A stretch of DNA of 64,000 bases from an uncultured bacterium (lineage in GTDB: Bacteria; Hydrothermota; E44-bin80), in the NCBI GenBank assembly GCA_964392665.1, contig CAYMQB010000010.1:895-64894 (forward strand). Direction: 5' to 3'. The notes under the pieces were generated by a model that saw only the letters and a list, made by a program, of their open reading frames with translations, was not told where the DNA came from and made no database searches. Shown one piece after another: positions 14,552 to 39,653 of this stretch; position 1 is the stretch's first letter; each line of letters starts with the position of its first letter. A program made the position numbers and the translations under genes.

Positions 14552-14654
14552 TTATGCGAGTAAAAATAAGGAGAGATGCGTATAGGCTCGTAAATGTTTG
14601 TGTCATAAATGAATTGAGATTTTCGGTTAAATGTGACACATATGTTGAATCGAG

Positions 14655-14696: not shown

Positions 14697-14721
14697 ATCA
14701 AAAAGTTGAGTAGGAGAGAAA

Positions 14722-18432: not shown

Positions 18433-18434
18433 TT

Positions 18435-23252: not shown

Positions 23253-23303
23253 TATTTTGTTTCAAAGGGATTGCAAGGTTAGTGGAATATTGTTAACAAG
23301 ATC

Positions 23304-24590: not shown

Positions 24591-24650
24591 ACCTGTGCAA
24601 TTTTAACACAAAAATATAATGAAATCAGACTATTAAAGTGGAAAGATGCT

Positions 24651-25853: not shown

Positions 25854-26820
25854 GAGGTATTTAAATAACAGTAGAACAAGGGTTTTGGTGACAGGGGCTG
25901 CAGGTTTCATAGGTTCTCATCTCTGCGAAAAACTGTTAAAAAAAGGACACAAGGTACTAGGAATAGATTGTTTTACGGATTTTTATCCGAAGGCAATAAA
26001 GACAAGAAACTTGCAGACTTGCCTAAAAAACCCAAATTTTGAATTTCGTGAAACTGATATATTGAGTTTGACCTCTATTGATAAAGATATTGGATATATA
26101 TTTCATACTGCTGCCCAAGCGGGCGTAAGAGCAAGTTGGGGGGGGAATTTTGATATCTATACAAGAAATAATATCCTTGCTACTCAGCATCTCCTTGAAT
26201 TATCCAAAAACCATAAAAAGGTTAAGAAAATCATTTATTCTTCATCTTCATCAGTCTATGGTGATGCAAAAATATTGCCTACAAAAGAAGATACTGTGCC
26301 TAAGCCTGTTTCTCCTTATGGAGTTACAAAACTTGCTGGTGAACATCTGTGTCGCCTGTACAATAAAAACTTTGGTGTTCCCGTTGTTTGTCTCAGATAT
26401 TTTACAGTTTTTGGACCACGACAGAGACCGGATATGGCTTTTTACAAATTTATAAAATCCGCAATTAACGGTAAACCCATAATTATTTATGGGGATGGCA
26501 GACAATCGAGGGATTTTACTTATGTTTCGGATGTCGTAGCAGCAAATATTCTTGCAATGCAAAAGGACACTGAAGATACCATTTTTAATATCGGAGGAGG
26601 TAATTATGTGACAGTTAATGAGACGATAGAACTCCTTGGAAAATTGTTGAAATTACCTGTCAATGTTAAGTATAAAGAAAAAGAAAAAGGTGATGTAAGA
26701 GATACAAGTGCAGATATTAACAGGGCAAAACGAGAACTGGGGTTTAATCCAAAATACGATTTGAACTATGGTTTGGAAAAGGAATTAGAATGGATAAAAA
26801 AAATATATAACATATCCTAA
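25846..26820 (+). CDS. NAD-dependent epimerase/dehydratase (extended SDR; UDP-sugar 4-epimerase / WbpP-like)
   Basis: 324 aa; Rossmann 'VLVTGAAGFIGSHLCEKLL', catalytic 'SPYGVTKLAGE' (YxxxK); contains a G8 homopolymer at 26138-26145. Confidence 0.75.
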   Translation: MVKRYLNNSRTRVLVTGAAGFIGSHLCEKLLKKGHKVLGIDCFTDFYPKAIKTRNLQTCLKNPNFEFRETDILSLTSIDKDIGYIFHTAAQAGVRASWGGNFDIYTRNNILATQHLLELSKNHKKVKKIIYSSSSSVYGDAKILPTKEDTVPKPVSPYGVTKLAGEHLCRLYNKNFGVPVVCLRYFTVFGPRQRPDMAFYKFIKSAINGKPIIIYGDGRQSRDFTYVSDVVAANILAMQKDTEDTIFNIGGGNYVTVNETIELLGKLLKLPVNVKYKEKEKGDVRDTSADINRAKRELGFNPKYDLNYGLEKELEWIKKIYNIS

Positions 26821-26839
26821 GCTTTGAATTGTTTTCAAA

Positions 26840-28003
26840 ATGAACAAAAAAAAGATAAATGTTATTCATATAATAACTGAGTTAGCCATTGGTGGGGCAA
26901 CCGAAAATACCATAATTACTGCTTCTTCTTTGAATAGAAGAAAATTCAATACTATTATTGTCTCTGGGAAAGAAGAACAAAATGACGATCTTGTAAAACG
27001 TGTTAAGCAGGAGGAAATCCCATATTTTGTTAATAAAAACCTTTGCAGGTTAATAAATCCGGCAAGGGATTTACTATGTTTATTGACGCTTACCAAATTT
27101 ATCAGGGAACACAAAGGGATTGTTGTCCATACACATAGTTCAAAAGCAGGTATCATTGGTAGGATAGCAGCATTTTTGGCCGGGAGCACAATTATTATCC
27201 ATACAGTTCACGGGTGGAGTTTTCATCAATATTGGAAGAGATGGGAAATGTATATTTTTATTCTTTTAGAAAGATTTGTAGCACGATTTACCGATAGGAT
27301 TGTGTGCGTTACCACAATGGATATTCTTAAAGGATTAGCAAGCAATATTGGAAGAATTAATCAATATGGTGTGATTCGCAGTGGATTTGATATTAAGAAA
27401 TTCCAGGGTAACAAAGATACTACAGACAAAATGAAGAAACAATTTGATTTTCCCTTGAATCAAAGGATTGTGGGAACAGTTGGAAGATTATCACAACAAA
27501 AAGATCCTGAAACATTTGTTAACGTAGCGCACTTGGTAAGTAAGATAAGGAAAGATGTGATATTTGTTTTTGTTGGAGAAGGAGAGTTGCGGAAAAAGAC
27601 AGATAATCTGATACAACATCTCAAAATGGAGAAATATATCTATCTTCTGGGTGCACAGAAGAATGTTGAAAAGATTTTTCCACTCTTCGATGTATTTCTT
27701 CTAACATCATTATGGGAAGGTTTACCAAAAGTTATTCCACAGGCTATGGCATCGGGTATACCAATAGTTTCTACTGCAGTCGATGGTGTTAAAGAAGTGA
27801 TTAAAAATGAAACAAATGGTTATCTTTCAAAACCCGGAGATGCTGAATCTCTTGCAGAAAATGTAATTAAACTACTTAACGATAAAGAGAAATCCAGACG
27901 ATTTGTATACAACTCAAAACGCTTAATAAAACAGTTTGACTCTAAATTAATGGTAAAACAGATTGAAAGAACTTACAGTGATTTAATTAGCAAGAAAACA
28001 TAA
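26840..28003 (+). CDS. Glycosyltransferase family 4
   Basis: 387 aa; 'INVIHIITELAIGGATE' and 'EGLPKVIPQAMASGIPIVSTAVDGVKEVI'. Confidence 0.7.
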   Translation: MNKKKINVIHIITELAIGGATENTIITASSLNRRKFNTIIVSGKEEQNDDLVKRVKQEEIPYFVNKNLCRLINPARDLLCLLTLTKFIREHKGIVVHTHSSKAGIIGRIAAFLAGSTIIIHTVHGWSFHQYWKRWEMYIFILLERFVARFTDRIVCVTTMDILKGLASNIGRINQYGVIRSGFDIKKFQGNKDTTDKMKKQFDFPLNQRIVGTVGRLSQQKDPETFVNVAHLVSKIRKDVIFVFVGEGELRKKTDNLIQHLKMEKYIYLLGAQKNVEKIFPLFDVFLLTSLWEGLPKVIPQAMASGIPIVSTAVDGVKEVIKNETNGYLSKPGDAESLAENVIKLLNDKEKSRRFVYNSKRLIKQFDSKLMVKQIERTYSDLISKKT

Positions 28004-28009
28004 GCAATA

Positions 28010-28433
28010 ATGAATAAACCTATTATTCTTGTTGTTGGGGCAAGACCCAATTTTGTTAAGGCTTCTCCTCTCTTCAACGCAATGAGAGAAAGAAAGATAA
28101 ATACTATTCTAATTCATACGGGTCAACATTATGATTATGAATTGTCCAAAACATTCTTTGAGGATTTTAGCCTGGGTAAACCCGACATAAATCTTGAGGT
28201 GAGTTCTGGAAATCATGGTGAACAGACAGGTAGGACTCCGGAGTTACGATAGAAGAATGCCAGAAGAGATAAACCGTGTGCTTACAGATGCTATTGCGGA
28301 TTATTTATTTACGCCTTCGTTGAATGCGAATGAAAATCTTAAGAAAGAAGGTATTGCGGATGAACAAATCTTTTTTGTAGGGAACATTATGATAGATTCG
28401 CTGGTAAAACATCTACCGCTTATGTGGACATAA
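28010..28433 (+). pseudogene. Decayed UDP-N-acetylglucosamine 2-epimerase (wecB-like) remnant: N-terminal ~150 aa only, internally deleted and frameshifted
   Basis: Two short ORFs, 28010-28252 and 28215-28433. The first, 'ILVVGARPNFVKASPL...IHTGQHYDYELSKTFF...NLEVSSGNHGEQTG', matches the WecB N-terminus. The second, 'LRSYDRRMPEEINRVLTD', matches WecB at about residues 125-180. About 45 aa between them are missing and the whole C-terminal domain is absent; ~55% identical to the intact convergent wecB. Confidence 0.6.
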
Positions 28434-29585
28434 GTATTTAAGAATGTTCTGTGCTGTCTGACCGTCACCGTATAAAAATCGGGACATGTATTTTGGGACT
28501 GGGGATGAATGCAATGCAACCCTAACTATGTTTTTTCTATTAGTCCCCACGATAACATTATTACCACTTTTTACCGTTTCTATCCATTCAGTTTCATTTC
28601 GTAAAGTTATGCAAGGAACACCTAAGAAATATGCTTCTTTCTGTATTCCACCTGAGTCTGTCAAAATTTTTCTTGCATTTTTCTCAAGTGTTAACATATC
28701 AAAATAGCTGACTGGATCAATCAAGTGTATGTTAGCATAATTTGATGGTAAGAGATTAAAGTTCTTTAAGGTTTTTTTCGTTCTCGGGTGAACTGGAAAG
28801 ACTACAGGATAACATTTACCGATTTCAATCAAGGCATCAAGAATATTCTTTAATTTTCTTTTATTGTCAGTGTTTTCAGCCCTGTGAATAGTTACTAAAA
28901 AATATTGTTTGCTGATTCTTTTAAGTTGTTTCAAAATGTCCGATTTTTTTTCCGCAATTTTCAGACTTATCAGCGTAGCATCATACATAATATCACCAAC
29001 ATTTACAACAACTGGAAATTTGTTGTAGCACATTTGTGATGTTGAGAAAGAAGGATTAATCAGTTTTCCGTCATTTATTATGTTAGTATAACCTTCTTTC
29101 TTTAAATTCTTCACACCGTTCTCTGTGGGACAGAAAAGAATATCCGAGCAATGGTCGGTAAGTATTCGATTTATCTCTTCCGGCATTTTTCTATTATAAC
29201 TTCGTAAGCCAGCTTCTATATGTACTATTGGAATTTGTAGTTTTACAGCTGCCAAGGCACCTGCTAATGTTGAATTTGTGTCACCATATACTATTGTAAG
29301 AGCGGGTTTTTCTTTCATCAAGATTGGTTCCAGTCGTTTTATCATTTCACCTGTCTGCCAACCATGAAACCCGGAACCTACTTCAAGATTATATTCGGGT
29401 TCTGGAATATCAAGTTCGGTAAAAAAGATTTTATTCATTTCATAGTCATAATGCTGACCCGTATGAATTATAATATGATTTACTTTAGGTTTTTTATTAC
29501 TGTTCTTTTGTCCCCTAATTGCTTGCACCAAAGGAGCAAGTTTAATAAATTGAGGACGTGCACCAACAACACTTATTAGTTTCAT
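28413..29585 (-). CDS. wecB: UDP-N-acetylglucosamine (or UDP-2,3-diacetamido-2,3-dideoxy-glucuronate) 2-epimerase, WecB/WbpI family
   Basis: 390 aa full-length Epimerase_2: 'VVGARPQFIKLAPL', 'HTGQHYDYEMNKIFF', 'LRSYNRKMPEEINRILTD', 'VHPRT'; last gene of the wbpE-wbpB/D unit. Confidence 0.8.
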   Translation of the reverse strand: MKLISVVGARPQFIKLAPLVQAIRGQKNSNKKPKVNHIIIHTGQHYDYEMNKIFFTELDIPEPEYNLEVGSGFHGWQTGEMIKRLEPILMKEKPALTIVYGDTNSTLAGALAAVKLQIPIVHIEAGLRSYNRKMPEEINRILTDHCSDILFCPTENGVKNLKKEGYTNIINDGKLINPSFSTSQMCYNKFPVVVNVGDIMYDATLISLKIAEKKSDILKQLKRISKQYFLVTIHRAENTDNKRKLKNILDALIEIGKCYPVVFPVHPRTKKTLKNFNLLPSNYANIHLIDPVSYFDMLTLEKNARKILTDSGGIQKEAYFLGVPCITLRNETEWIETVKSGNNVIVGTNRKNIVRVALHSSPVPKYMSRFLYGDGQTAQNILKYLCPHKR

Positions 29586-29676
29586 ATAATTGTTATCACG
29601 CCATTCAGGTCAAGTGGATTGTTTTCCTTTTTCAACATCAAATGAGGGGTATTGTTGAAGTAAGTGTTGTGAGAGA

Positions 29677-31311
29677 CTAATTTATTTGCTTCACAACATC
29701 AGCCTTTTTTTGATATTGCCTTGAACATTTTGGGCAAGTTGCTTTGTTTTTACTGAATTTTAATTTTGTGCCGCATTCACATATCCAGCCAATGGGTTTG
29801 GCAGGGACCCCTGCGACTATGGTGTAATCGGGAACATCTTTTGTAACAACAGCACCAGCACCAATCATAGCCGACTTTCCTATAATTATCCCGCAGACGA
29901 TTGTTGCGTTTGCACCAATTGATGCACCTTGCTTAACTGAGGTTGGTATCCATTTCCCATATTTCGGATACTTTTTCTTGGGATACTTTGCACGGGGATT
30001 AATATCGTTGGTAAAAACAGCAGATGGTCCTACAAAAACATAGTCTTCAAGAGTAACTAAGTCCCAGACATCTATGTTGCATTCCAATTTAACTCCGTTA
30101 CCAAGTTTTGCCTTGGAGCCAACAAAGCAGTTATGACCAATTATGCAATTTTCTCCAATCTCTGCACCTGATTGAATTTGAGAATGATGCCATATCTTGG
30201 TCCCTCTGCCAATTGTGCAATTATCCTCCACAGAAGCAGATTTCTGAACGAAATAGGGTATTTCTGCGTGTGGATTTCGGATTACGGGTTGTGAATGCAG
30301 GATAACTTTTTCTCCAGAATTGTTGAGGGATTGTTGTGCTGCAGAAAGAATCTCAAGAACTTGAAGGCCTTCGTAACCATCAGTTATTGGGATTTCCTTG
30401 TTTTGAATACAATCCAGAAAATGTTTACATTCGAGTTTGAGAGGTTCGGAGAATTTAATGGGGATTGTTTCAGCATCAGCCTTAGAAACGACAGGGATAC
30501 GATTCTGCCACTCAATTGTATGTGGATACAAGAAGAGTTTTTCGTTGGTTAAATCATCGAAAACAGCCATTTTCTTATCACCTACTACTACAAGTTTTTG
30601 CTCCTTAAATGGATGAAGCCAGGATACAAAAATGTGGCTTTTAACACCATTAGAGAACTGCATCGAGGTTAGAGTTACATCTGCAATGTCGTGTTGCAGA
30701 TAATTGCCACCGGTGGCACTGACAGTTTCCGGAGATTCACCTAAAAGAAATAGAATTGTAGATATATCGTGTGGTGCAAAGCTCCAGAGAATGTTTTCTT
30801 CAGCTCTTATTTTCCCTATATTTAAACGATTTGAGTAAATATATTGGATTTTACCGAGTTCTCCTGAGTCAATCAGTTCTTTAAGTTTATTAATTGCAGG
30901 ATGATAACGTAAAATGTGGCCTACCATCAGAATACTTTTTTCCCCCTCTGCCAGGAATATTAGGTCTTTTGCTTCTTCAATATTTAATGCGAGGGGTTTT
31001 TCTACATAGACATTTTTATTTGCAGATAGTGCTTGCTTGGCTATTTCGTAGTGAGTTGCAGCTGGGGTAGCGATAACTATTCCTTTAATCTCAGGATCTT
31101 TTAGCACATCTTTATATGTTTCAGTAAAATGTATATCTGGATACTGAGATTTACGAGTTCTTAAGGTTGCTTTATCTGAATCACAGACAGTTTTTAAGAC
31201 ACCAAGTTCACTAAAATTGCGGACGAGATTCTTTCCCCAGCCTCCTGCCCCTACTACAGCAATATTAAGGCATTTCGGATTGCGGATTGCGGATTGCGGA
31301 TTTTTATCCAT
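29677..31311 (-). CDS. Bifunctional fusion: Gfo/Idh/MocA NAD-oxidoreductase (WbpB/GnnA-like) + hexapeptide-repeat N-acetyltransferase (WbpD/PglD-like) + C-terminal Cys4 zinc ribbon
   Basis: 544 aa. N-terminal 'LNIAVVGAGGWGKNLVRNF...YVEKPLALNIEEA' (Gfo/Idh/MocA); C-terminal left-handed beta-helix 'IGENCIIGHNCFVGSKAKLGNGVKLE...IGANATIVCGIIIGKSAMIGAGAVV'; the final 40 aa 'WICECGTKLKFSKNKATCPKCSRQY' form a CxxC...CxxC ribbon. Confidence 0.7.
   Translation of the reverse strand: MDKNPQSAIRNPKCLNIAVVGAGGWGKNLVRNFSELGVLKTVCDSDKATLRTRKSQYPDIHFTETYKDVLKDPEIKGIVIATPAATHYEIAKQALSANKNVYVEKPLALNIEEAKDLIFLAEGEKSILMVGHILRYHPAINKLKELIDSGELGKIQYIYSNRLNIGKIRAEENILWSFAPHDISTILFLLGESPETVSATGGNYLQHDIADVTLTSMQFSNGVKSHIFVSWLHPFKEQKLVVVGDKKMAVFDDLTNEKLFLYPHTIEWQNRIPVVSKADAETIPIKFSEPLKLECKHFLDCIQNKEIPITDGYEGLQVLEILSAAQQSLNNSGEKVILHSQPVIRNPHAEIPYFVQKSASVEDNCTIGRGTKIWHHSQIQSGAEIGENCIIGHNCFVGSKAKLGNGVKLECNIDVWDLVTLEDYVFVGPSAVFTNDINPRAKYPKKKYPKYGKWIPTSVKQGASIGANATIVCGIIIGKSAMIGAGAVVTKDVPDYTIVAGVPAKPIGWICECGTKLKFSKNKATCPKCSRQYQKKADVVKQIN
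31276..31300 (-). repeat. Heptanucleotide tandem repeat (CGGATTG x 3.6) within codons 5-12 of the wbpB/D fusion ORF
   Basis: Plus strand reads cGGATTGcGGATTGcGGATTGcGGA; on the coding strand this is AATCCGC x3, encoding 'PQSAIRN'; the unit length is 7, not a multiple of 3. Confidence 0.85.
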
Positions 31312-31322
31312 AAAAGCACTCC

Positions 31323-32423
31323 TTACTTTTCAAAAAATTCTCGAATTGTTATAATGACATACTCTATTTCTTCGTCTGCTAAATCAGGATGAATCGGTAA
31401 TGAGAGGACCTCTTTTGCAGCTTTTTCAGACTCTGGAAAATCACCTTCTTTGTAACCAAGATAATCAAATGCCTTTTGAAGGTGCAAAGGTATAGGATAA
31501 TGAATTGCAGTTCCTATATTCTTTTCAGTCAAATACTGTTTCAGTTCATCCCTTCTGGATGTTCTTATTGTATACTGGTGATAAACAGTTTCATTCCCAG
31601 GTGTTATATACGGAACTTCAACGCTATCTTTTAGTCCCTCATCATATTTAAGAGCAGTCTCTCGTCTTTTCTTGTTCCATTCATCTAAGTATTTTAACTT
31701 AATCCGCAAGAAGGTAGCTTGAATAGCATCAAGACGGTCATTATAGCCAAGAACATCGTGATAATACTTTTTTGACGCTCCATGCACTCGTAGAGCGCGT
31801 AATTTATTATCCAAAAATTCGTTGTTTGTTACAATCATTCCAGCATCTCCCAAAGCATTCAGATTTTTGGTGGGGAAAAAACTTATGCAAGCAGTATCAC
31901 CGAATTTTCCAATATTCTCTCCGTTATACTTTGAGCCTATTGCCTGTGCCATATCTTCTACAACTTTTAGATTGTTTTCTTTGGCAATTTTCATAATCTT
32001 GTCCATATCAGCTGCTTGCCCGTATAAATGTACAGGTAAAATTGCTTTTGTTTTCTCGGAAATAAGCGGGGTAATTTTGTCGGGACTGATGTTGAAAGTT
32101 TTAGGTTCAATATCACAGAAGATTGGCTTTGCCCCAAGCAATGCAATAACTTCGGCAGTGGCCATAAAAGTAAACGGGCTTGTTATAACTTCATCGCCAG
32201 AGTGGACGCCCAATGCTGCCAGAGACAATAGTAAAGCATCTGTCCCATTTGATACGCCAATTGCGTATTCAGTGCCAATATACGAGGCAACTTCGTGCTC
32301 AAAGTTCTTGACCTCATCTCCAAGAATAAATTGCCCGCTGTCTAATACCTTTTCAAATGCATTCATCAGTTCTTTTTTTATGGGCTTATGTTGACGCTGT
32401 AAATCTATAAACGGTACTTTCAT
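31323..32423 (-). CDS. DegT/DnrJ/EryC1/StrS-family PLP-dependent sugar aminotransferase (WbpE/GnnB-like)
   Basis: 366 aa; 'FIDLQRQHKPIKKELMNAFEKVLDSGQFILGDEV', 'AIGVSNGTDALLL'; the active-site lysine region lies in the 'SFFPTKNLNALGDAGMI' segment. Confidence 0.8.
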   Translation of the reverse strand: MKVPFIDLQRQHKPIKKELMNAFEKVLDSGQFILGDEVKNFEHEVASYIGTEYAIGVSNGTDALLLSLAALGVHSGDEVITSPFTFMATAEVIALLGAKPIFCDIEPKTFNISPDKITPLISEKTKAILPVHLYGQAADMDKIMKIAKENNLKVVEDMAQAIGSKYNGENIGKFGDTACISFFPTKNLNALGDAGMIVTNNEFLDNKLRALRVHGASKKYYHDVLGYNDRLDAIQATFLRIKLKYLDEWNKKRRETALKYDEGLKDSVEVPYITPGNETVYHQYTIRTSRRDELKQYLTEKNIGTAIHYPIPLHLQKAFDYLGYKEGDFPESEKAAKEVLSLPIHPDLADEEIEYVIITIREFFEK

Positions 32424-32638
32424 TTTTCTCCTTTTCTATTGAGTAAAAGGTATATTATTTTACATCTATGACCAAGATAGTCCACCACCACAGGATTATT
32501 TTATTCGACACCAATCCGTTTCTTATAACTTAAAAACTTTATACTGCCTAATCTCTTTTGTCAAGAACTTTGTACATGACAAGTTTATGTTGGAAGTTTC
32601 CGGAATAATTATTTCTACGCAAAATTGCAATAATATTG

Positions 32639-33379
32639 TTACTCCAGTGAGTGAATAGCGGTTAAAAATTCATTTAGGAGAGAGGGTGTCCTTTCTATGA
32701 TGCTTCCTGTCACGATAAAATCGGCGCCTGCTTCTACCTTTTTTCTCGCTTCATCTGGGGTTTTTATACCGCCACCGATAATCAAGGGTAGTGCAGTTTC
32801 CTTTTTGACTGTCCTTATAACATCTTCGGGAATACTGTATTTTGCACCACTTCCCGCATCCATATAGACCATTTTCATTCCCAAATACTTCCCAGCAAGA
32901 GCGTGTGAGGCAATCAGTTCTGTGTTGTCTCTTGGCAAAGGTTTTGTATTGCTTACGCGTTCAACACTTGTTATATTTCCGGATTCAATTATAAGGTATG
33001 CGACAGGGATTGTTTCAATGCCACAGTTTTTAACCAAAGGTGCAGCCTTTACCTGCTCTTCAATGAGGAATTGTGGGTTTCTTCCGCTTAAAAGTGACAT
33101 AAAGAAGATAGCATCCGCTTCGCCCGTTACTTGATAATGACAACCTGGGAAGATAATAACAGGTTTTGTTGTGACTTTTTTTATTTCCTCTATCAATCCA
33201 GCTAATTCAATGCTCCTGAGTGTGCTTCCTCCAACGAGAACACCGTCTATGTCAGCATCCTTCAGAAATCTAAGCACATCTTCAAAAGCCTCATCCTTTG
33301 CATTTTCGGGGTCAATAAGAGGAAGATACCCAGCCCCTCTTTCTTTCCTAACATTAATTAAATAGTCGAAAATTGACAT
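32639..33379 (-). CDS. pcrB: Geranylgeranylglyceryl-phosphate synthase family protein (GGGPS / PcrB, TIM-barrel prenyltransferase)
   Basis: 246 aa; 'DGVLVGGS' and C-terminal 'IIGGGIKTPDEARK' phosphate-binding motifs typical of GGGPS/PcrB. Confidence 0.6.
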   Translation of the reverse strand: MSIFDYLINVRKERGAGYLPLIDPENAKDEAFEDVLRFLKDADIDGVLVGGSTLRSIELAGLIEEIKKVTTKPVIIFPGCHYQVTGEADAIFFMSLLSGRNPQFLIEEQVKAAPLVKNCGIETIPVAYLIIESGNITSVERVSNTKPLPRDNTELIASHALAGKYLGMKMVYMDAGSGAKYSIPEDVIRTVKKETALPLIIGGGIKTPDEARKKVEAGADFIVTGSIIERTPSLLNEFLTAIHSLE

Positions 33380-33396
33380 ATGTTTCGGTATTGGGG

Positions 33397-35958
33397 CTAG
33401 CCTAATTTCTCAATAATGAAATTTCGTGCAATTTGCAGGGCTTCATCTATTTTCTCCATTTTCTTTCCACCCGCAGTTGCGAAATCTGCTCTGCCGCCGC
33501 CTCCACCATCTATGATTGGAGATATTTCTTTGACTATTTCGCTCGCTTTGATTTTTTCAGTAAGGTCATCGGAAACGAAGGCGACAATGACAACATTGTT
33601 ATCGTAATCACTTGCGAATAGCCCTATGCTCTTCTTATCCCAGATTTTTTTTACTTCATCTAAAAGCTTTCGAAGGCTATTGATATTTTGATGCGGGATT
33701 CTTTTTATTAACAGGTAGACACCACCTTTAATTTCTTCCGGTTTAATAGCTTTAGCATCGGTTGAACTTAGTTTCTTCTCCATCTGCTCTATCCTGTGGG
33801 TTAGTTTCTTCTCATTTTCAACCAAATGACGTAGCCTTTCCTCGATTTTCTCTTTATCTACCTTTAACAAACGAGAAATAGTTTCTTCTCTTTCTTTTAT
33901 AGCGTTTATGTATTTCAATGAATTTCTTCCCGTTATCGCTTCGATTCTCCTTACGCCGCTTGCTATCGAAGATTCGGTAAGAATCTTGAACAATCCAATC
34001 TCTCCTGTATTTTTTACATGGGTTCCACCGCAAAGCTCCATCGAGAAATCACCGATTTTTAGCACCCGAACATTATCTCCATATTTTTCGTTAAAGAGCG
34101 CTATTGCCCCCATCTTTTTTGCCTTCTTAAAATCCATTTCGAAAGATTCAACGGGAAGGTTCGATAGAATTTGCTCATTGACAACTGTTTCGACCTTTTC
34201 CAGTTCATCCTGCTTTACTTTGGAAAAATGCGTAAAGTCAAATCTAAATCTATCCGGTGCGACAAGCGAACCTTGCTGATGAATATGCTTCCCCAGAATT
34301 TCTCTCAAGGTAGCCTGAAGAAGGTGTGTTGCCGTATGATTCCTTGCAATGTCCATCCTTCTTTCTCTATCAACATTTACAGCTACCGTCATACTTTCTT
34401 TGGGTTTTCCGTGGACAATTTTACCAATGTGCAGGTTTCCATATGATGATGTTTTAGTACTAATGACTTGAATCTCCAGATCTTTACCCTGGATGGTTCC
34501 TGTATCTCCCACCTGTCCACCCATCTCAGCATAGAATGGTGTTTCTTCAAGTAATATTCCGATATTATCGTTTATTTCTTTTAATGCAATAATCTTTGTT
34601 CTGCAGGTAAGTTTTTCATAACCGGAGAATTGAGATTTGTTTGCTAACTTCTTATCAAAAAGCTTTATATCTTTGTCAAACTTCGTTTTTCCTTTTGCGC
34701 GAACCCTCTGTTTCTCCATTTCCTTTTCATAATCTCTCTCGTCTATGTTAAATCCTTCTTCCTCCGCGAGTTGACGGGACAGCTCAAGAGGAAAGCCGTA
34801 CGTATCGTATAACTTGAATGCATATTCACCAGGCAGCGTTTTGGTCTTATTTTTTCGAAGTTCGTCAATCATCTCCTTGAATATGGAAATTCCGGACTCA
34901 AGTGTGGCGAGAAATCTTTCTTCCTCTGCCTTGATGACAAGGGAAGTGTGTTGTGCTTTCCCCTCTAATTCAGGATATTCTTTTCCCATTATGTCAACAA
35001 CATTGCGAGCAAGTTTGTACAGGAAAGGTTTTTTGTATCCCAGCTTTTTTCCTTCAAGAACTGCTTTTCTGAGGATTCTTCTTATGACATATCCTCGCTC
35101 CTCGTTCGAGGGGAGGATACCTTCGGTAATTGCAAAGGTGAGTGCTCTTATGTGGTCTGCAATAATTTTTTTATTCAGTTTATCTTCACCTTTTCTTATT
35201 CCTTCTATTATGGGTGTGAAAAGGTCTGTATCGAAAATATTTTGCTTCCCTTGACACACCATAAGGGTTCTTTCCAATCCCATTCCTGTATCAATGCCTC
35301 GATTCTTAAGGGGGATATTGGTTCCGTCTTTTAGTCTTTCGAACTGCGGTAATACGATGTTCCAGATTTCGACAAATCTATCGCATTCGTTCTCAATCGT
35401 GCAACCGTTTCCTGTTTTGCCGAATTCCTCTCCAAGGTCGAAAAATATTTCCGTAGATGGTCCACAGGCACCGGTCTTCCCTGCTGGTCCCCAGAAGTTT
35501 GTTTTCTCGCTTAACCTGTATATCCTATCCAGAGGAAACCCAATATGTTTTTTCCATATATCATACGATTCTTTGTCATCTTTGAACACAGTAACGGAAA
35601 GTTTATCCAAAGGGAGCTCGAGCACATCTTTGATGAATTGCCATCCCCACTCGATTGCCTGTTTCTTGAAATAATCTCCAAATGAGAAGTTGCCCAACAT
35701 CTCGAAGAATGTTTCGTGAAATGGAGTTTGACCAACCTTTTCTAAATCACTCATTCTCAAACATTTCTGAACACTGCAAGCTCTTGTGTAAGGAAGCGGA
35801 ACATTGCCTGTCCAGTAAGGTTTAAACTGAACCATACCCGCACTGTTGAACAGAAGAGATGGATCGTCCTTAACAACAAGAGGAGCACTTTTAACAACTG
35901 AATGCTTCTTCTGTTTGAAGAATTCTAAAAAAGTCTTTCTTAATCCTTCTGCGGTCAT
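33397..35958 (-). CDS. alaS: Alanine--tRNA ligase
   Basis: 853 aa; class II core, tRNA_SAD editing domain HxxxH ('HTATHLLQ') and 'CGGTH' zinc motif, C-terminal DHHA1 'GGGGGRADFATAGG'. Confidence 0.95.
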   Translation of the reverse strand: MTAEGLRKTFLEFFKQKKHSVVKSAPLVVKDDPSLLFNSAGMVQFKPYWTGNVPLPYTRACSVQKCLRMSDLEKVGQTPFHETFFEMLGNFSFGDYFKKQAIEWGWQFIKDVLELPLDKLSVTVFKDDKESYDIWKKHIGFPLDRIYRLSEKTNFWGPAGKTGACGPSTEIFFDLGEEFGKTGNGCTIENECDRFVEIWNIVLPQFERLKDGTNIPLKNRGIDTGMGLERTLMVCQGKQNIFDTDLFTPIIEGIRKGEDKLNKKIIADHIRALTFAITEGILPSNEERGYVIRRILRKAVLEGKKLGYKKPFLYKLARNVVDIMGKEYPELEGKAQHTSLVIKAEEERFLATLESGISIFKEMIDELRKNKTKTLPGEYAFKLYDTYGFPLELSRQLAEEEGFNIDERDYEKEMEKQRVRAKGKTKFDKDIKLFDKKLANKSQFSGYEKLTCRTKIIALKEINDNIGILLEETPFYAEMGGQVGDTGTIQGKDLEIQVISTKTSSYGNLHIGKIVHGKPKESMTVAVNVDRERRMDIARNHTATHLLQATLREILGKHIHQQGSLVAPDRFRFDFTHFSKVKQDELEKVETVVNEQILSNLPVESFEMDFKKAKKMGAIALFNEKYGDNVRVLKIGDFSMELCGGTHVKNTGEIGLFKILTESSIASGVRRIEAITGRNSLKYINAIKEREETISRLLKVDKEKIEERLRHLVENEKKLTHRIEQMEKKLSSTDAKAIKPEEIKGGVYLLIKRIPHQNINSLRKLLDEVKKIWDKKSIGLFASDYDNNVVIVAFVSDDLTEKIKASEIVKEISPIIDGGGGGRADFATAGGKKMEKIDEALQIARNFIIEKLG

Positions 35959-36031
35959 TTTGTAACCTCTAAAGCTTCAAACCACAGAGCCTGTACTTCA
36001 TTTCATTCAAGAGTAAGCTCCGCACTTTCTC

Positions 36032-36334
36032 CTATTGTCCCTCTACAAGATGACTGCCTGTTTGGGGAACAGAAAAATGAACCACATCTCCATCCTTCAG
36101 TACCGTTCCGTTTTCAGGTGCTGTGCCGTTGATCGTGAATCCAAGAATACCGGGAGGGAAGCTTTTTTTAATCTCCGGATAACTTTCGAGCACGGATGCG
36201 AGTATGAAGAAAAAAAATGTATTTTTTGACACAATACATTCCTCGGTTTCTTTGTTTGTAATTAATTGAAGAGTTCTGTCGTATGTTATGATAATCTTCT
36301 GCGAATCGAAAATATCATCATTCATAGATACCAA
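36032..36334 (-). CDS. Hypothetical small protein, possibly MoaD/ThiS-like beta-grasp with a C-terminal extension
   Basis: 100 aa; 'VLKDGDVVHFSVPQTGSHLVEGQ' resembles the MoaD 'L-DGDEV-F-PPVSGG' C-terminus but continues past the expected Gly-Gly; weak assignment. Confidence 0.2.
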   Translation of the reverse strand: MVSMNDDIFDSQKIIITYDRTLQLITNKETEECIVSKNTFFFFILASVLESYPEIKKSFPPGILGFTINGTAPENGTVLKDGDVVHFSVPQTGSHLVEGQ

Positions 36335-36582
36335 TATAACCTATCGGATGAGGAATTTCAAGAAGTTTTTTAAAAAACATTAGCCACGGTTACTACACGG
36401 TAAAACACAATATCAAGGTTAAACTAATAAAACCAATCCAACCAACACCAAACCAATTTTACCACAGAGACGCAGAGAAAATACTTATTTCAAGGTTTAA
36501 ACCAATTAAACAAAACAAATAAACAGGGATTGAAAGAGAACTTAAAGAGATTTCTCAATCAGTCGGGACTGGGAAGTTTTTC

Positions 36583-36924
36583 CTACCTCTTCACAATTTT
36601 ATAGATGAGTTCACCATCCTTGAGCATTCCTAATTTCTCGCGCGCAATTTTTTCGATGGTGAAAAGATCGGTCTTCAATTTTTCGCAGTTTTTAGTGAGG
36701 GAAATTTCTTCTACGGTTAACCTATCGGCACTTTTCTCTATTCTTTTTATCTTGGTGTGAAGGGAAATGATTTTAAATAAACCGTACGAACCTCCGAGAA
36801 AAAGATATAGGAACCAGGCAACAAATCCAATTTTTATCAATCTATAAAACCAGAGTTTAAGTTTGGAAGTTTTTTTCCTTCTCCTTGGTTTTCTGTAGTA
36901 ATAATTTCTGTTAGTAAACCGCAT
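36583..36924 (-). CDS. ftsB: Septum formation initiator family protein (FtsB/DivIC-like)
   Basis: 113 aa; basic N-terminus, single TM 'IGFVAWFLYLFLGG', coiled coil ending in 'EKIAREKLGM', the typical FtsB C-terminal motif. Confidence 0.55.
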   Translation of the reverse strand: MRFTNRNYYYRKPRRRKKTSKLKLWFYRLIKIGFVAWFLYLFLGGSYGLFKIISLHTKIKRIEKSADRLTVEEISLTKNCEKLKTDLFTIEKIAREKLGMLKDGELIYKIVKR

Positions 36925-37062
36925 TATTTTTTATACTATTCATTGCGTGATTTGTCAAGAGAAAAATGTGGAGAAACTTCTTCTTAGATTCTTCCAAAGT
37001 CAATATGGAAAGGATTACTCAGAATGACAGCTTGCTCGATCTATTCGGTTTGTTTGGTTTAC

Positions 37063-38049
37063 TTACTTTGTATGGAATTCTATAATATCTCCATCCTGCA
37101 AGATTTCATCTCTATCAACTCTCATCCCTTTAAGCTTTTGGTTCCTCCATAACCTAACATATTTCAAATTGGTAATGAAATCCTTATGAATTTGAGAGGC
37201 AAGTTCTATAATTTTGGTGTTTTTCTTAAGAACGAACGGGTGAGATTTGTCGATATCCTTCTTGGGAGGCTTAGTGTAGACCCTTATTATGTTAAGGGAT
37301 TTATAGATATCGTCTTTTAGTTTTTTTATTCCCGAATTTTTTAGAGCGGATATACTGATAAATTCGAGCTGTCGGTGATATTTTTTCGATAGGAATTGAA
37401 AATTATACTGCGCAGCTTCCATGTCTTCCTTGTTACAGAGCACCAATGACTGCTTGTACATAAAATTCTCATCTGTCTGCTGTGCGTCATTCTTGAAAGT
37501 CCTTATGTGCGAGGATTCGAGAAGATTGAGCAGAATTTCGATTTGTTTGCTAACATCTTTTTTTGAAATGTCGAGTACGATTAGAAGAAGGTTGCTTGAT
37601 CTCGCAATTCCAAAAATCCAACCAGGAGCATAATCAAGTGAAACAGGAGGCATATCGACAATTTGAATCTGTATATCTTCGTAAATAAGCATTCCTATCT
37701 GCGGTTTTCTTGTTGTAAAGGGATAATTTCTAATCTCTGGTTCGGCATTTGTCAAAACACCGAGGATCTGCGATTTTCCGGAATTTGGCAATCCCAACAT
37801 CACAGCTTGAGCTGCGCCTTCCTTTGGAACATGATAAAAATCGAAGCGGGCAACACCAGATTTTTTACCCAGTTCTCTTTTTAGTTTTGCGATTTTTGAC
37901 CTTAGGTCTGCCTTGAGTTTGTCCGTGCCCTTATGTTTGGGCATAATGGAAAGTAGTTCTAAATAAATTTGTATCTTTTCCTCGGGGGTAGAGGCAAATT
38001 TCAACTCTCTTTCTTTCTCGTAATAATTTGGAGGGAGATTTGCAGGCAT
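37063..38049 (-). CDS. DRG-family (developmentally regulated GTP-binding protein-like, Obg superfamily) GTPase with C-terminal TGS domain
   Basis: 328 aa. N-terminal helix 'KIQIYLELLSIMPKHKGTDKLKADLRSKIAKLKREL' parallels the DRG N-terminus; G1 'GLPNSGKS', G2 'YPFTT', G4 'NKED'; 'IIRVYTKPPKKD...' and TGS-like 'DGDIIEFH' match DRG C-terminal regions. Confidence 0.55.
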   Translation of the reverse strand: MPANLPPNYYEKERELKFASTPEEKIQIYLELLSIMPKHKGTDKLKADLRSKIAKLKRELGKKSGVARFDFYHVPKEGAAQAVMLGLPNSGKSQILGVLTNAEPEIRNYPFTTRKPQIGMLIYEDIQIQIVDMPPVSLDYAPGWIFGIARSSNLLLIVLDISKKDVSKQIEILLNLLESSHIRTFKNDAQQTDENFMYKQSLVLCNKEDMEAAQYNFQFLSKKYHRQLEFISISALKNSGIKKLKDDIYKSLNIIRVYTKPPKKDIDKSHPFVLKKNTKIIELASQIHKDFITNLKYVRLWRNQKLKGMRVDRDEILQDGDIIEFHTK

Positions 38050-38237: not shown

Positions 38238-39653
38238 TTATCTCAGTTTTATTACTTTTTGCGTAATTGTCCTTTCCTGCAGATTTGCTTTGATATAGTA
38301 TATACCTGGAGGAATCTTAGAACTATTCCATGCAAAGGTATATCTTCCGCGATTTAGTTCTTTTGAAACAAGGGTAGCTATTTTTCTTCCTGAGATGCCG
38401 TAGATGGAAATTTCCGCATTCACTTTTCCCAGAACACTTAAATTGACCGAGACAGAGTTTATAATCAGAGTTGGGAAAATACGAAGAGAAAAGTTCTTAT
38501 TCTGCAGATTTGTTTCAGAAACCCCACCTCCCAGAACTATGTCATTGGAGTCTCGTGGTTCTATCTTGAAGTTTCCAAAAGAATAATTTAGTGGTCCTGT
38601 TACTGTGTATACTTCGCTTATAACAGGGATATAACTGACACCCATATCATCGATTCTAACCGGCCCCGAACTATCATCCAACTCCCATTCGCCGTTACCC
38701 AGAGAGTCGTCTGTACATGTGGCAGTGACTCTTACAAGGGAACTTTCATAGTCTTCGACCGGAACAGAACCTGTTTGTAAAACTGTTGGTCCAGGAATAG
38801 AAGCTCCACTCGATAGCACTTCGGTAAGCGGCCCAGTAAGTTCGGTCATTCCGAAGTACTCGGTCACCATGCCTGTTATGCGAACACTATCTCCCCTTGC
38901 AGGTGCAGTTGAACTACCATATACATAGATACCGTGCCATGGTCCTCCAGGTTGCTCTTCTATGAAGAAATCGTTTCCATATACTCCACTCACTATACCG
39001 TAGGTTACAACAGCAGAATTTTCCCAGGGTGAAGAGGTTGCCTGTCCCTGTATTTCATATATGCTCAAAGTTTCAGGAGGTGTTCCCGAGCCGAGGTCTT
39101 CGAAATAAGCATCATCGACGTAAATCAGGGCACTGTCAGTAAAACCGCTAACATCGTATAGTCTGATCTCGACATGAGCAGTTTCTGCCAATGCCGGTGC
39201 ACCTTGTGGACCCGACAACAATTGCTGCCATTCTGTTGAATCGGAACTGTAATCACCATAGTAGCCGTTGATAAATCCACCGGTGCCGTCATACCATCGT
39301 ATGTTAACCCTCGCTCTTCCATACTGGTCGTTGTCAAAACACCAGAAAGAGAAATTGTAGTCATTAGCTGGATTGATTGGCGCAACATACTGAGTGAATC
39401 TCTGGGTTGAGGTGGACCTGAGGATTAGTTTTGCACTGAAAGTTCCAGAGTGAACAATACCGGATTCTTTTACTGCATCAAAGCCAGTTGTTTCGGTATA
39501 CCAGTATTGACATGTAGAGTCATCGACCCAATTTTCGAATCCTGGATTCAGGAGCAGATTCTGTCCCCAGGCGGTTGGTAAGGGTAACAAGAAAAAAGCA
39601 ATAATGGTCATTAAAACAGAATTTTTCATAAAACCTCCTTTTTTACAAACCAA
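38238..39653 (-). CDS. Secreted protein with an N-terminal CBM4/9-like domain, an ExeM/NucH-type OB-like domain and a T9SS C-terminal sorting domain
   Basis: Signal peptide 'MKNSVLMTIIAFFLLPLPTAWG'; 'LLNPGFENW' beta-sandwich start; 'IYEIQGQATSSPWENSAVVTYGIVSGVYGN'; C-terminal ~80 aa 'LRIFP...NLSVLGKVNAEISIYGISGRKIATL...GIYYIKANLQ...KVIKLR' matches the T9SS/FlgD-Ig-like CTD. Confidence 0.5.
   Translation of the reverse strand: MVCKKGGFMKNSVLMTIIAFFLLPLPTAWGQNLLLNPGFENWVDDSTCQYWYTETTGFDAVKESGIVHSGTFSAKLILRSTSTQRFTQYVAPINPANDYNFSFWCFDNDQYGRARVNIRWYDGTGGFINGYYGDYSSDSTEWQQLLSGPQGAPALAETAHVEIRLYDVSGFTDSALIYVDDAYFEDLGSGTPPETLSIYEIQGQATSSPWENSAVVTYGIVSGVYGNDFFIEEQPGGPWHGIYVYGSSTAPARGDSVRITGMVTEYFGMTELTGPLTEVLSSGASIPGPTVLQTGSVPVEDYESSLVRVTATCTDDSLGNGEWELDDSSGPVRIDDMGVSYIPVISEVYTVTGPLNYSFGNFKIEPRDSNDIVLGGGVSETNLQNKNFSLRIFPTLIINSVSVNLSVLGKVNAEISIYGISGRKIATLVSKELNRGRYTFAWNSSKIPPGIYYIKANLQERTITQKVIKLR

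What the first reader, a model, noticed from the sequence alone, without database searches (positions are those of the whole stretch)
32639..33379. Archaeal-type (G1P-specific) prenylglyceryl-phosphate synthase GGGPS/PcrB next to alaS
The 246-aa TIM-barrel protein carries the 'VGGS' and 'GGGIKT' phosphate-binding motifs of the GGGPS/PcrB family, the enzyme that makes the first ether bond of archaeal membrane lipids. Bacterial members occur in Bacillales as PcrB (heptaprenyl) and in the FCB group as group-II GGGPS, where they are linked to bacterial ether lipids and the 'lipid divide' debate. Its presence, together with the DRG GTPase, supports an FCB or candidate-phylum origin. Whether a G1P dehydrogenase (EgsA/AraM) and a UbiA-type DGGGP synthase exist elsewhere determines whether archaeal-like diether lipids are made.
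Basis: partly seen in the sequence, partly recalled or inferred. Interest (0 to 1): 0.5.

Follow-up and report, generated by a model that had tools for sequence, protein, structure and literature searches.

The report
Bacterial group II GGGP synthase gene
This gene encodes the enzyme that makes the first ether bond of archaeal-type membrane lipids, in an uncultured bacterium (relatives labelled WOR-3 or Cloacimonadota); such bacterial copies are already well described, so it is a solid but ordinary find.

Summary
Window 32639..33379 (-) is an intact 246-aa ORF, 17 nt downstream of alaS, carrying the quoted motifs. It is a full-length PcrB/GGGPS family member (PF01884, 7.8e-44) and passes NCBIfam's curated cut-offs for GGGP synthase. 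Sequence, NJ tree and predicted structure (pLDDT 92; TM 0.91 to Flavobacterium johnsoniae GGGPS 4jej) place it in bacterial group II. It is far from PcrB, group I enzymes and TrpA/HisF barrels.

Mg-binding Asp, phosphate loops, both Tyr and the C20 limiter are conserved. Two deviations: Asp replaces the reportedly strictly conserved catalytic Glu (clade-wide; 34 of 97 bacterial loci, 0 of 21 archaeal), and Arg sits at the hexamer anchor, predicting a dimer. dN/dS is 0.1-0.2.

No DGGGPS (UbiA), G1P dehydrogenase, geranylgeranyl reductase, polyprenyl synthase or CarS match lies in the 64-kb window, and no DGGGPS lies within 10 kb in clade relatives. Genome-wide presence could not be tested.

Instead, alaS-GGGPS is a conserved pair bordering envelope-polysaccharide genes. 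A sister clade has alaS-GGR-GGGPS, and many other lineages have alaS-GGGPS-gmhA.

[quoted passage not shown] This is a new member of a known kind; interest is low to moderate.

The parts
32639..33379 (-). GGGPS gene (246 aa), group II bacterial-type geranylgeranylglyceryl phosphate synthase. Key residues: D23 (Mg/diphosphate), S52, V84 (chain-length limiter position), Y128, R141 (hexamer 'aromatic anchor' position), Y172, D174 (position of the catalytic Glu), G176-S177-G178, G202-G203-G204, T224-G225.
33380..33396 (-). 17-nt alaS-GGGPS spacer with no terminator-like or promoter-like site. This suggests co-transcription with alaS (inferred).
   Evidence: The same tight alaS-GGGPS pairing occurs in relatives.
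33397..35958 (-). alaS (alanyl-tRNA synthetase, 853 aa), the conserved upstream neighbour and probable operon partner. No functional link to lipid synthesis is implied.
32424..32638 (-). 215-nt spacer between GGGPS and the downstream sugar-aminotransferase gene. It holds one sigma-70-like match (TTGACA-17-TAAAGT, 32564..32536). The number of such matches in the scanned region (31200-37200) is not above the shuffle expectation, so this is weak evidence for a separate promoter.

Best explanation
The gene encodes a soluble (beta-alpha)8-barrel prenyltransferase of GGGPS group II, bacterial branch.

By homology to the characterised F. johnsoniae, M. thermautotrophicus and Ca. Cloacimonetes enzymes, the reaction runs as follows. 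The enzyme binds geranylgeranyl diphosphate (C20) through a Mg2+ held by Asp23. It binds sn-glycerol-1-phosphate through the standard phosphate-binding loops (GSG 176-178, GGG 202-204, TG 224-225). Tyr128, Tyr172 and an acidic residue (here Asp174 instead of Glu) position and polarise the C3 hydroxyl, and the geranylgeranyl group is transferred to it. The product is geranylgeranylglyceryl phosphate, the first ether bond of archaeal-type lipids.

It is probably a homodimer, because Arg sits at the hexamer anchor position. It is probably expressed constitutively as the second gene of an alaS operon.

Shown here: family and group membership, fold, conservation of the Asp, Tyr and phosphate-loop ligand-binding residues (the catalytic Glu is replaced by Asp), purifying selection and conserved synteny.

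Inferred: substrates, stereochemistry, oligomeric state and co-transcription.

Not established: what happens to GGGP afterwards. The published model is a second prenylation by a UbiA-type DGGGPS encoded elsewhere, then saturation and head-group addition by bacterial enzymes, giving a mixed membrane. No partner enzyme was found in the window.
For: - Family: PF01884 full-length, 7.8e-44. NF003198 and TIGR01769 score above their curated cut-offs, while the PcrB equivalog NF003197 scores 27.7 bits against a cut-off of 260 and the group I TIGR04146 scores 39.5 against 320.
- PDB by sequence: 4jej 7e-53, 4mm1 7e-51, 6jo3 and 6nke, against group I 2f6u at 6e-9.
- Tree: an NJ tree rooted on PcrB puts the query inside the bacterial group II clade with 4jej and the FCB-type sequences.
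- Structure: AF2 model with pLDDT 92.2. Foldseek gives 4jej TM 0.91 and rmsd 1.6 A, PcrB/AfGGGPS/MoeO5 TM 0.71-0.80, and TrpA 0.57.
- Residues: D23, S52, V84 (= Mt V86), Y128, Y172, GSG, GGG and T224 are conserved. Their roles are taken from PMC9385802.
- Dimer prediction: Arg at the anchor position as in the dimeric Flavobacteriales enzymes (PMC7888582).
- Selection: dN/dS 0.1-0.2 and intact ORFs in all relatives.
- Synteny: alaS-GGGPS conserved from 86% down to about 45% identity. A sister clade has a geranylgeranyl reductase family gene (TIGR02032, 214 bits against a cut-off of 158.8) between alaS and a GGGPS that also carries Asp. This ties the Asp-type enzymes to isoprenoid lipid chemistry.
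- Literature: a Cloacimonetes GGGPS makes GGGP in vitro and, together with its DGGGPS, makes archaeol-PG in E. coli (PMC7852524).
Against: - No enzyme with Asp at the catalytic Glu position has been characterised, to my knowledge. All 21 archaeal loci and all 4 bacterial loci where GGGPS sits next to a DGGGPS carry Glu.
- No UbiA/DGGGPS, G1P dehydrogenase, polyprenyl synthase, GGR or CarS was detected among the window's ORFs. No DGGGPS-like ORF lies within 10 kb in clade relatives. This differs from the Black Sea Cloacimonetes, where the two genes are co-localised.
- The source of G1P is unknown.
- No lipid data exist for this lineage.
Confidence: 0.8

Rival explanations
1. Same enzyme and reaction, but a different fate for the product. 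GGGP is not turned into bilayer-forming archaeol. It stays a mono-ether that is dephosphorylated or decorated, as B. subtilis does with heptaprenylglyceryl phosphate. Alternatively it serves as a lipid anchor or acceptor for an envelope glycoconjugate.
For: - No DGGGPS near the gene in this clade.
- GGGPS always borders sugar-nucleotide or polysaccharide genes. In the window it is followed by a DegT aminotransferase, a sugar dehydrogenase-acetyltransferase fusion, WecB and many glycosyltransferases.
- In other lineages a gmhA-like gene follows directly in 34 of 60 assessable loci. In L078 and L044 a WcaJ-type polyprenyl glycosylphosphotransferase comes next.
- Bacillales provide a precedent for a non-membrane mono-ether fate (PMC9179154).
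- The function of bacterial GGGPS products is described as unknown (PMC7888582).
Against: - The downstream genes vary in content and orientation between relatives (the next gene is on the opposite strand). Only alaS is constantly linked.
- gmhA is an ordinary LPS-core gene, so adjacency may be positional only.
- All 12 surveyed FCB-group phyla have both GGGPS and DGGGPS somewhere in the genome (PMC6431249).
- The sister clade links GGGPS to a digeranylgeranylglycerophospholipid-reductase-like gene.
Confidence: 0.15
2. It is a PcrB-type enzyme that uses heptaprenyl diphosphate (C35), as in Bacillales.
For: The Pfam family is shared, and NCBI's subfamily name covers both activities.
Against: - The PcrB equivalog NF003197 scores 27.7 bits against a cut-off of 260.
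- PcrB structures do not appear at E <= 0.001 in the sequence search and align at only 17-20% identity with TM 0.72-0.80.
- In the tree the query is on the other side of the deep group I / group II split.
- The limiter position carries Val, as in the C20-specific M. thermautotrophicus enzyme (PMC9385802).
Confidence: 0.02
3. It acts in the reverse or catabolic direction on archaeal lipids taken up from the environment. This possibility was raised for FCB bacteria that lack G1P dehydrogenase.
For: The idea is suggested in PMC6431249. No G1PDH is present in the window.
Against: - The gene is paired with a housekeeping gene (alaS) and not with catabolic or transport genes.
- The Cloacimonetes homolog works in the synthetic direction in vitro and in E. 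coli (PMC7852524).
- E. coli makes G1P-based archaeal lipids without araM or egsA (PMC7852524).
Confidence: 0.02
4. It is an unrelated phosphate-binding TIM barrel (TrpA, HisF, ThiE or NanE-like) that merely shares the GGG/VGGS loops.
For: Weak hits to His_biosynth, Trp_syntA and NanE, restricted to residues about 170-245.
Against: - Those hits cover only the C-terminal phosphate-binding quarter, and most fall below their cut-offs.
- PF01884 and the GGGPS structures match end to end.
Confidence: 0.01

Closest known systems
Flavobacterium johnsoniae GGGPS (PDB 4jej), group II bacterial branch
   Same: Best sequence match (E = 7e-53) and best structural match (TM 0.91, rmsd 1.6 A, 40% identity). 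It shares the Mg-binding Asp, both Tyr residues, the phosphate loops, a small aliphatic limiter (Fj I90, query V84) and Arg at the hexamer anchor position, and 4jej is a dimer (PMC7888582).
   Different: The query has Asp174 where 4jej has Glu180. The genomic setting differs: here the gene is in an alaS operon.
Ca. Cloacimonetes NIOZ-UU GGGPS/DGGGPS system (Villanueva et al. 2021, PMC7852524)
   Same: A bacterial group II GGGPS in an FCB-type uncultured lineage. The nearest named homolog of the query (72% identity) is labelled Cloacimonadota. G1P dehydrogenase and CarS are not detected, as in those MAGs. The expected chemistry is the same.
   Different: In those MAGs GGGPS is co-localised with DGGGPS, and a polyprenyl synthase lies on the same scaffold. 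Here the flanks are alaS and polysaccharide genes, with no UbiA in 64 kb. I could not retrieve the NIOZ sequence, so direct identity and its Glu/Asp state are unknown.
Methanothermobacter thermautotrophicus GGGPS (PDB 4mm1), group II archaeal branch
   Same: E = 7e-51, TM about 0.9. D25/S54/V86 correspond to D23/S52/V84.
   Different: The archaeal enzyme is a hexamer that depends on Trp141, where the query has Arg141. It has Glu, not Asp, at the catalytic acid position.
Bacillus subtilis PcrB (PDB 3vzx/1viz), group I bacterial branch
   Same: Same Pfam family, same fold and the same G1P acceptor.
   Different: Only 17-20% identity. PcrB uses a C35 donor with a different limiter arrangement on helix alpha-4a, and its product is dephosphorylated and acetylated (PMC9385802, PMC9179154).

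Membership tests
GGGPS/PcrB family (PF01884) | Full-length match to the family profile above the curated threshold | tested here: met
   PF01884 scores 150.3 bits (cut-off 23.9) over residues 10-235, matching profile positions 3-219 of 226. TIGR01768 GGGP-family scores 176.6 bits against a cut-off of 113.25.
GGGPS/PcrB family (PF01884) | (beta-alpha)8 barrel with an extra N-terminal helix alpha-0 | tested here: met
   AF2 model: pLDDT 92.2, helix 3-14 precedes the first strand 17-22, and the eight strands are present. The top 48 Foldseek PDB hits are all GGGPS, PcrB or MoeO5 structures.
GGGPS/PcrB family (PF01884) | Essential Asp that holds the Mg2+-diphosphate (Af D13 / Mt D25) | tested here: met
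   D23 aligns with Mt D25 and is invariant in 120 of 120 homologs.
GGGPS/PcrB family (PF01884) | Standard phosphate-binding motif in loops beta-alpha 6, 7 and 8 | tested here: met
   G176-S177-G178, G202-G203-G204 and T224-G225 are invariant or nearly invariant.
GGGPS/PcrB family (PF01884) | Tyr/Tyr/Glu triad for G1P stereoselectivity and catalysis (Fj Y134/Y178/E180; Af Y124/Y165/E167) | tested here: inconclusive
   Y128 and Y172 are present. The Glu position is Asp174. An acidic residue is kept, but Asp has not been tested biochemically as far as I know. Asp occurs in 55 of 123 aligned sequences (120 homologs plus the query and two PDB references) and in 34 of 97 bacterial loci, but in none of 21 archaeal loci. 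The Glu is therefore not strictly conserved in the family as sampled here.
GGGPS group II (versus group I / PcrB) | Closer in sequence, tree and structure to group II than to group I | tested here: met
   Group II PDB entries score 1e-42 to 7e-53 against 6e-9 for group I 2f6u. HMM scores agree, as do the NJ tree and TM scores of 0.87-0.91 against 0.71-0.80.
GGGPS group II (versus group I / PcrB) | Thr in loop beta-alpha 8 in place of Af N216 | tested here: met
   The motif is V223-T224-G225, and T224 is conserved in at least 90% of sequences. The feature is taken from PMC9385802.
GGGPS group II (versus group I / PcrB) | C20 limiter: a small aliphatic residue on helix alpha-3' (Mt V86 / Fj I90) | tested here: met
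   V84 aligns with Mt V86. The link from this residue to chain length is by analogy only.
Hexameric group II GGGPS | Aromatic (W/Y/F/H) anchor in the ring interface | tested here: not met
   R141 aligns with Mt W141 and Fj R147. Twenty-one of the 24 closest relatives also have Arg, while most other FCB-type homologs have Phe or Tyr. By analogy to Flavobacteriales this predicts a dimer (PMC7888582).
GGGPS (enzyme activity) | Forms GGGP from GGPP and G1P | not testable with these tools
   Requires an enzyme assay.
Complete archaeal-type diether lipid pathway in a bacterium (Villanueva-type) | UbiA-type DGGGPS in the same genome (co-localised in Black Sea Cloacimonetes) | tested here: inconclusive
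   A DGGGPS HMM finds nothing in the 64-kb window or in the bacterial loci L001-L005 and L029-L040, although it finds the gene next to GGGPS in 13 archaeal loci and in 4 of 80 metagenome loci. Co-localisation is therefore not met. Presence elsewhere in the genome could not be searched.
Complete archaeal-type diether lipid pathway in a bacterium (Villanueva-type) | G1P dehydrogenase (EgsA/AraM), GGPP synthase, geranylgeranyl reductase | tested here: inconclusive
   Pfam scans of the window's ORFs found none of them. A GGR family gene sits between alaS and GGGPS in the sister clade. The whole genome was not available.

The most novel reading that the evidence does not exclude
In this lineage, GGGPS has been uncoupled from DGGGPS. 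It sits in an alaS operon at the edge of the envelope-polysaccharide locus and carries Asp in place of the catalytic Glu. Its product could be a mono-ether isoprenoid glycerol lipid that is glycosylated or otherwise used in the cell envelope, not converted into bilayer-forming archaeol. That would give a function to the widespread and so far unexplained bacterial GGGPS genes, and to the alaS-GGGPS-gmhA neighbourhood seen in many FCB-type lineages.
Probability: 0.1. Interest if true: 0.6.

Novelty: new member of a known kind. Interest (0 to 1): 0.3.

Why it matters
Bacterial GGGPS genes bear on the 'lipid divide' debate: whether some bacteria carry mixed archaeal and bacterial membranes, and whether such membranes are ancient. 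This gene adds one more uncultured lineage, labelled WOR-3 or Cloacimonadota, to the published list. It does not change the picture.

Three side observations are modestly useful:
- The catalytic Glu, described as strictly conserved, is Asp in about a third of bacterial group II sequences and in none of the archaeal ones sampled.
- This clade lacks the GGGPS-DGGGPS co-localisation that anchored the Cloacimonetes argument.
- alaS-GGGPS, often followed by gmhA or polysaccharide genes, is a deeply conserved neighbourhood that the papers I read do not mention. It could guide experiments on what bacterial GGGP is used for.

Tried and rejected
- Unrelated TIM-barrel family (TrpA, HisF, ThiE, NanE): rejected. 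Those matches cover only the C-terminal phosphate-binding part, and TrpA aligns at TM 0.57.
- PcrB / C35 enzyme: rejected.
- Pseudogene or decaying gene: rejected. The ORF is intact in all relatives and dN/dS is 0.1-0.2.
- Partner enzymes in the window: Pfam scans of 47 of the 51 called ORFs, plus a local DGGGPS HMM over all ORFs of 100 aa or more, found no UbiA, Fe-ADH-type G1PDH, polyprenyl synthase, GGR or CarS. The three largest ORFs (55292-63776) were not scanned with Pfam.
- DGGGPS elsewhere in the same genome: I obtained a bacterial DGGGPS from metagenome locus L055 (6m31 at E = 5e-50) and searched with it. None of the 120 listed hits lies on a contig of the size that carries the clade's GGGPS, and the hits cannot be tied to a genome. 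No conclusion.
- Retrieving the NIOZ-UU3 GGGPS and DGGGPS sequences from the paper's supplement: the relevant sheets were cut when stored.
- Genome-contig scan for close relatives: it returned only homologs of 49% identity or less, because the peptide patterns must match exactly.
- Asp-type versus Glu-type enzymes as distinct genomic contexts: no clean split. AlaRS is adjacent in 20 of 31 Asp-type loci against 18 of 51 Glu-type. gmhA is adjacent in 5 of 28 against 30 of 49.
- Rfam and tRNA scans of the window: nothing found.
- Promoter and terminator scan around the gene: counts are not above the shuffle expectation.
- Literature on cultured WOR-3 lipids: nothing found.

Full report
**Observation**

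Window 32639..33379 (minus strand) is an ATG-initiated ORF of 246 aa. It contains 'VGGS' from residue 49 and 'GGGIKT' from residue 202. alaS (853 aa) ends 17 nt upstream on the same strand. The two short plus-strand ORFs inside the gene (70 and 64 aa) are not supported by anything else.

**Family and group**

- The protein matches Pfam PF01884 (PcrB family) end to end, at 7.8e-44. Hits to His_biosynth, Trp_syntA, NanE and ThiG are confined to residues about 170-245, the phosphate-binding quarter that many TIM barrels share.
- In NCBIfam it passes the curated cut-offs of NF003198 (286.9 against 247), TIGR01769 'GGGP' (204.8 against 161.55) and TIGR01768. It fails the PcrB equivalog NF003197 (27.7 against 260) and the A. 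fulgidus-type group I model TIGR04146 (39.5 against 320).
- Among solved structures the best matches are group II enzymes: F. johnsoniae 4jej (7e-53), M. thermautotrophicus 4mm1 (7e-51) and the Thermoplasma enzymes 6jo3 and 6nke. Group I 2f6u scores only 6e-9, and PcrB is absent at E <= 0.001.
- I built an NJ tree of the query, 40 database homologs, 17 genome loci, 4jej and 4mm1. It is rooted on two PcrB sequences whose identity I verified against the PDB. The query falls inside the bacterial group II clade, in a subclade with MAG proteins labelled Cloacimonadota and WOR-3.
- An AlphaFold2 model built on a 41-sequence alignment has pLDDT 92.2 and pTM 0.91. Foldseek ranks 4jej first (TM 0.91, rmsd 1.6 A), then the M. 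thermautotrophicus and Thermoplasma enzymes. PcrB, AfGGGPS and MoeO5 follow at TM 0.71-0.80, and TrpA at 0.57.
- The refutation condition 'clusters with unrelated TIM-barrel families' is therefore not met.

**Active-site anatomy**

Residue roles are taken from the review PMC9385802 and from PMC7888582. I mapped them through an alignment with 4jej and 4mm1.

- Conserved: D23 (Mg2+-diphosphate; Mt D25), S52 (Mt S54), V84 at the group II chain-length limiter (Mt V86, Fj I90), Y128 and Y172. The phosphate loops G176-S177-G178 and G202-G203-G204 are also conserved, as is T224, the Thr typical of group II.
- First deviation: the acidic residue proposed to polarise the G1P C3 hydroxyl is Asp174, not Glu. 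The review calls this Glu strictly conserved. In my samples Asp is found in the query's whole subclade, in 55 of 123 aligned sequences (120 homologs plus the query and two PDB references) and in 34 of 97 bacterial loci. It is found in none of 21 archaeal loci, and in none of the four bacterial loci where GGGPS sits next to a DGGGPS. Two Asp-type genes (L038, L039) lie directly after a geranylgeranyl reductase family gene. Asp-type enzymes therefore still sit in an isoprenoid-lipid context.
- Second deviation: the hexamer 'aromatic anchor' (Mt W141) is Arg141, as in the dimeric Flavobacteriales and Thermoplasmatales enzymes. Twenty-one of the 24 closest relatives share Arg, whereas most other FCB-type homologs have Phe or Tyr. 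I infer a dimer.
- In passing: the triad numbers Y134/Y178/E180 that the review assigns to MtGGGPS fit the 4jej (Fj) numbering in my alignment, not 4mm1.

**Is the gene functional?**

Orthologs at 86, 72, 69 and 65% identity are all intact. dN/dS is 0.20 and 0.10 for the two pairs in which dS is not saturated.

**Organism**

- The identical protein and the identical alaS product occur in public assemblies (P0001, P0130). JGI contig Ga0315538_1000212 shows the same gene order.
- Named relatives of GGGPS are a Cloacimonadota MAG (72%) and a WOR-3 MAG (71%). At about 50% come Latescibacteria, Ignavibacteriales, Marinimicrobia, KSB1 and Poribacteria.
- Named relatives of AlaRS are mostly WOR-3, with one TA06.
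- NCBI places Cloacimonadota inside the FCB group. WOR-3 (now Caldifarciminota) is placed outside that node.
- A T9SS type A sorting-domain protein lies 5 kb away, and a weak, below-cut-off PorV/FadL-like hit lies at 54243-55292.
The phylum cannot be fixed from these labels.

**Surroundings and partners**

- I scanned 47 of the 51 called ORFs of the window against Pfam. I also ran a DGGGPS HMM, built from archaeal loci, over all ORFs of 100 aa or more. No UbiA/DGGGPS, G1P dehydrogenase, polyprenyl synthase, GGR or CarS match was found.
- Downstream of GGGPS on the same strand, after a 215-nt spacer, lie three genes. They are a DegT-type sugar aminotransferase, a fusion of a GFO/IDH/MocA sugar dehydrogenase-like domain with a hexapeptide acetyltransferase, and WecB (TIGR00236, 343.7 bits against a cut-off of 210). 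I read these as a pathway for an acetamido sugar nucleotide; that is an inference.
- Beyond them lies a polysaccharide locus of about 16 kb with Wzx-, Wzy- and Wzz-like genes, glycosyltransferases and an export protein.
- Upstream of alaS lie a conserved 100-aa ORF with no family, DivIC, and a DRG/Rbg-like GTPase.

**Comparative context**

- In the query's clade (65-86% identity; L029-L037, L040, L041) the order is constant: RuvA ... DRG-like GTPase - DivIC - small ORF - alaS - GGGPS. What follows is always polysaccharide-related but differs in content and even in strand.
- A sister clade (about 54% identity) has alaS - GGR - GGGPS, followed by NTP-transferase, epimerase, GmhA-like and GHMP-kinase genes in L038 (the shorter L039 lacks the GmhA-like gene).
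- In 80 metagenome loci with homologs of 40-51% identity, AlaRS is the immediate upstream neighbour in 24 of 65 assessable loci.
- In the same set a GmhA-like SIS protein follows within 1.2 kb, often overlapping, in 34 of 60 assessable loci. It scores 190-216 bits on TIGR00441, whose cut-off is 209.
- In L078 and L044 the next gene after that is a WcaJ-type polyprenyl glycosylphosphotransferase.
- A DGGGPS-like ORF sits next to GGGPS in only 4 of the 80 loci: L055, L047, L089 and L104. In two of them a GGR lies in between. The L055 ORF matches M. jannaschii DGGGPS 6m31 at 5e-50.
- Co-localisation with DGGGPS, the feature that anchored the Cloacimonetes case, is therefore the exception. It does not apply here.

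**What is known**

- Villanueva et al. (PMC7852524) showed that Ca. Cloacimonetes and many FCB-group and related phyla encode GGGPS and DGGGPS, co-localised only in Cloacimonetes. The genes are transcribed in situ. The purified GGGPS makes GGGP with G1P and also with G3P. Both enzymes together give archaeol-PG in E. coli. egsA/araM and carS are missing.
- Coleman et al. (PMC6431249) found GGGPS and DGGGPS in all 12 FCB-group phyla they surveyed, and G1PDH only in Fibrobacteres and Cloacimonetes.
- Group II bacterial GGGPS enzymology and structure are established (4jej; PMC9385802, PMC7888582).
- The present gene is thus a new member of a known kind.

**Mechanism and uncertainty**

I commit to a Mg2+-dependent transfer of the C20 geranylgeranyl group from GGPP to the C3-OH of glycerol-1-phosphate, carried out by a dimeric group II GGGPS that is expressed together with alaS (confidence about 0.8). 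Substrates, stereochemistry, oligomeric state and co-transcription are all inferred.

The fate of GGGP is open. The published diether route needs a DGGGPS that I could not look for genome-wide. My search with the L055 DGGGPS returned bacterial homologs, but none could be tied to this lineage.

The recurring position beside gmhA and polysaccharide genes, together with the lack of a linked DGGGPS, leaves room for a mono-ether or glycolipid role. I rate that at about 0.1-0.15.

**Verdict**

The finding is real and correctly interpreted, but it matches a published phenomenon. Interest is 0.3. The Asp-for-Glu clade and the alaS-GGGPS-(gmhA/polysaccharide) neighbourhood are the only parts that go beyond what I found in the literature.

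Noticed in passing
window 37063-38049 (-): A 328-aa GTPase with MMR_HSR1 + C-terminal TGS domains. Its best solved relatives are yeast Rbg1/Rbg2 (DRG family, E = 6e-23) and the TGS domain of human DRG1. It reaches no NCBIfam cut-off (best is Obg at 83 bits against 406). DRG is normally an archaeal/eukaryotic GTPase (my own knowledge). The gene is conserved in synteny in all clade relatives.
   Followed up: partly
loci L042-L121, also L001 and L004: A widespread alaS-GGGPS-gmhA-like neighbourhood in FCB-type metagenome contigs. AlaRS is adjacent in 24 of 65 assessable loci, and a GmhA-like SIS protein follows in 34 of 60. In L078 and L044 a WcaJ-type polyprenyl glycosylphosphotransferase comes next. 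The papers I read do not mention this.
   Followed up: partly
L038:6811-7986 and L039:59-1228: In a sister clade (about 54% identity) a geranylgeranyl reductase family gene (TIGR02032, 214 bits against a cut-off of 158.8) lies between alaS and GGGPS in L038, and a GGR-like gene likewise precedes GGGPS in L039. L038's best match is digeranylgeranylglycerophospholipid reductase. In L038 GDP-heptose-type genes follow: NTP-transferase, epimerase, GmhA-like and GHMP kinase.
   Followed up: partly
residue 174 of the GGGPS (window about 32858-32860): The catalytic Glu, described as strictly conserved in PMC9385802, is Asp in 34 of 97 bacterial loci and in 0 of 21 archaeal loci sampled. The triad numbers Y134/Y178/E180 that the review gives for MtGGGPS fit the 4jej (F. 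johnsoniae) numbering instead.
   Followed up: yes
window 28413-32423 (-): Three genes directly downstream of GGGPS: a DegT-type aminotransferase, a 544-aa fusion of a GFO/IDH/MocA sugar dehydrogenase-like domain with a hexapeptide acetyltransferase, and WecB. Together they look like a pathway for an acetamido (possibly 2,3-diacetamido) sugar nucleotide. The same genes follow GGGPS in the 86% relative L029.
   Followed up: partly
window 28010-28252 (+): An 80-aa ORF resembling the N-terminus of a UDP-GlcNAc 2-epimerase, next to the intact wecB on the other strand. In the identical JGI contig the matching region holds two called gene fragments (72 and 80 aa) with Epimerase_2 hits. This is probably a remnant of a second epimerase gene.
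   Followed up: no
window 36032-36334 (-): A 100-aa ORF between DivIC and alaS with no Pfam or NCBIfam match. An ORF of 96-100 aa occupies the same position in L029, L040 and L041.
   Followed up: no
window 12099-28003: A large envelope-polysaccharide locus: Poly_export/SLBB protein, sulfotransferase, Wzz-like, Wzy-like, Wzx flippase, at least seven glycosyltransferases and an NAD-dependent epimerase/dehydratase.
   Followed up: no
window 38238-39653 (-), 54243-55292 (-), 55292-63776 (-): A protein with a T9SS type A sorting domain, a FadL/PorV-like outer-membrane protein, and three very large ORFs (979, 1009 and 828 aa) that I did not annotate.
   Followed up: no
window 3110-5128 (+) and 47914-48660 (+): Second-messenger enzymes: a triple-GAF GGDEF diguanylate cyclase and a CdaA-type diadenylate cyclase.
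   Followed up: no
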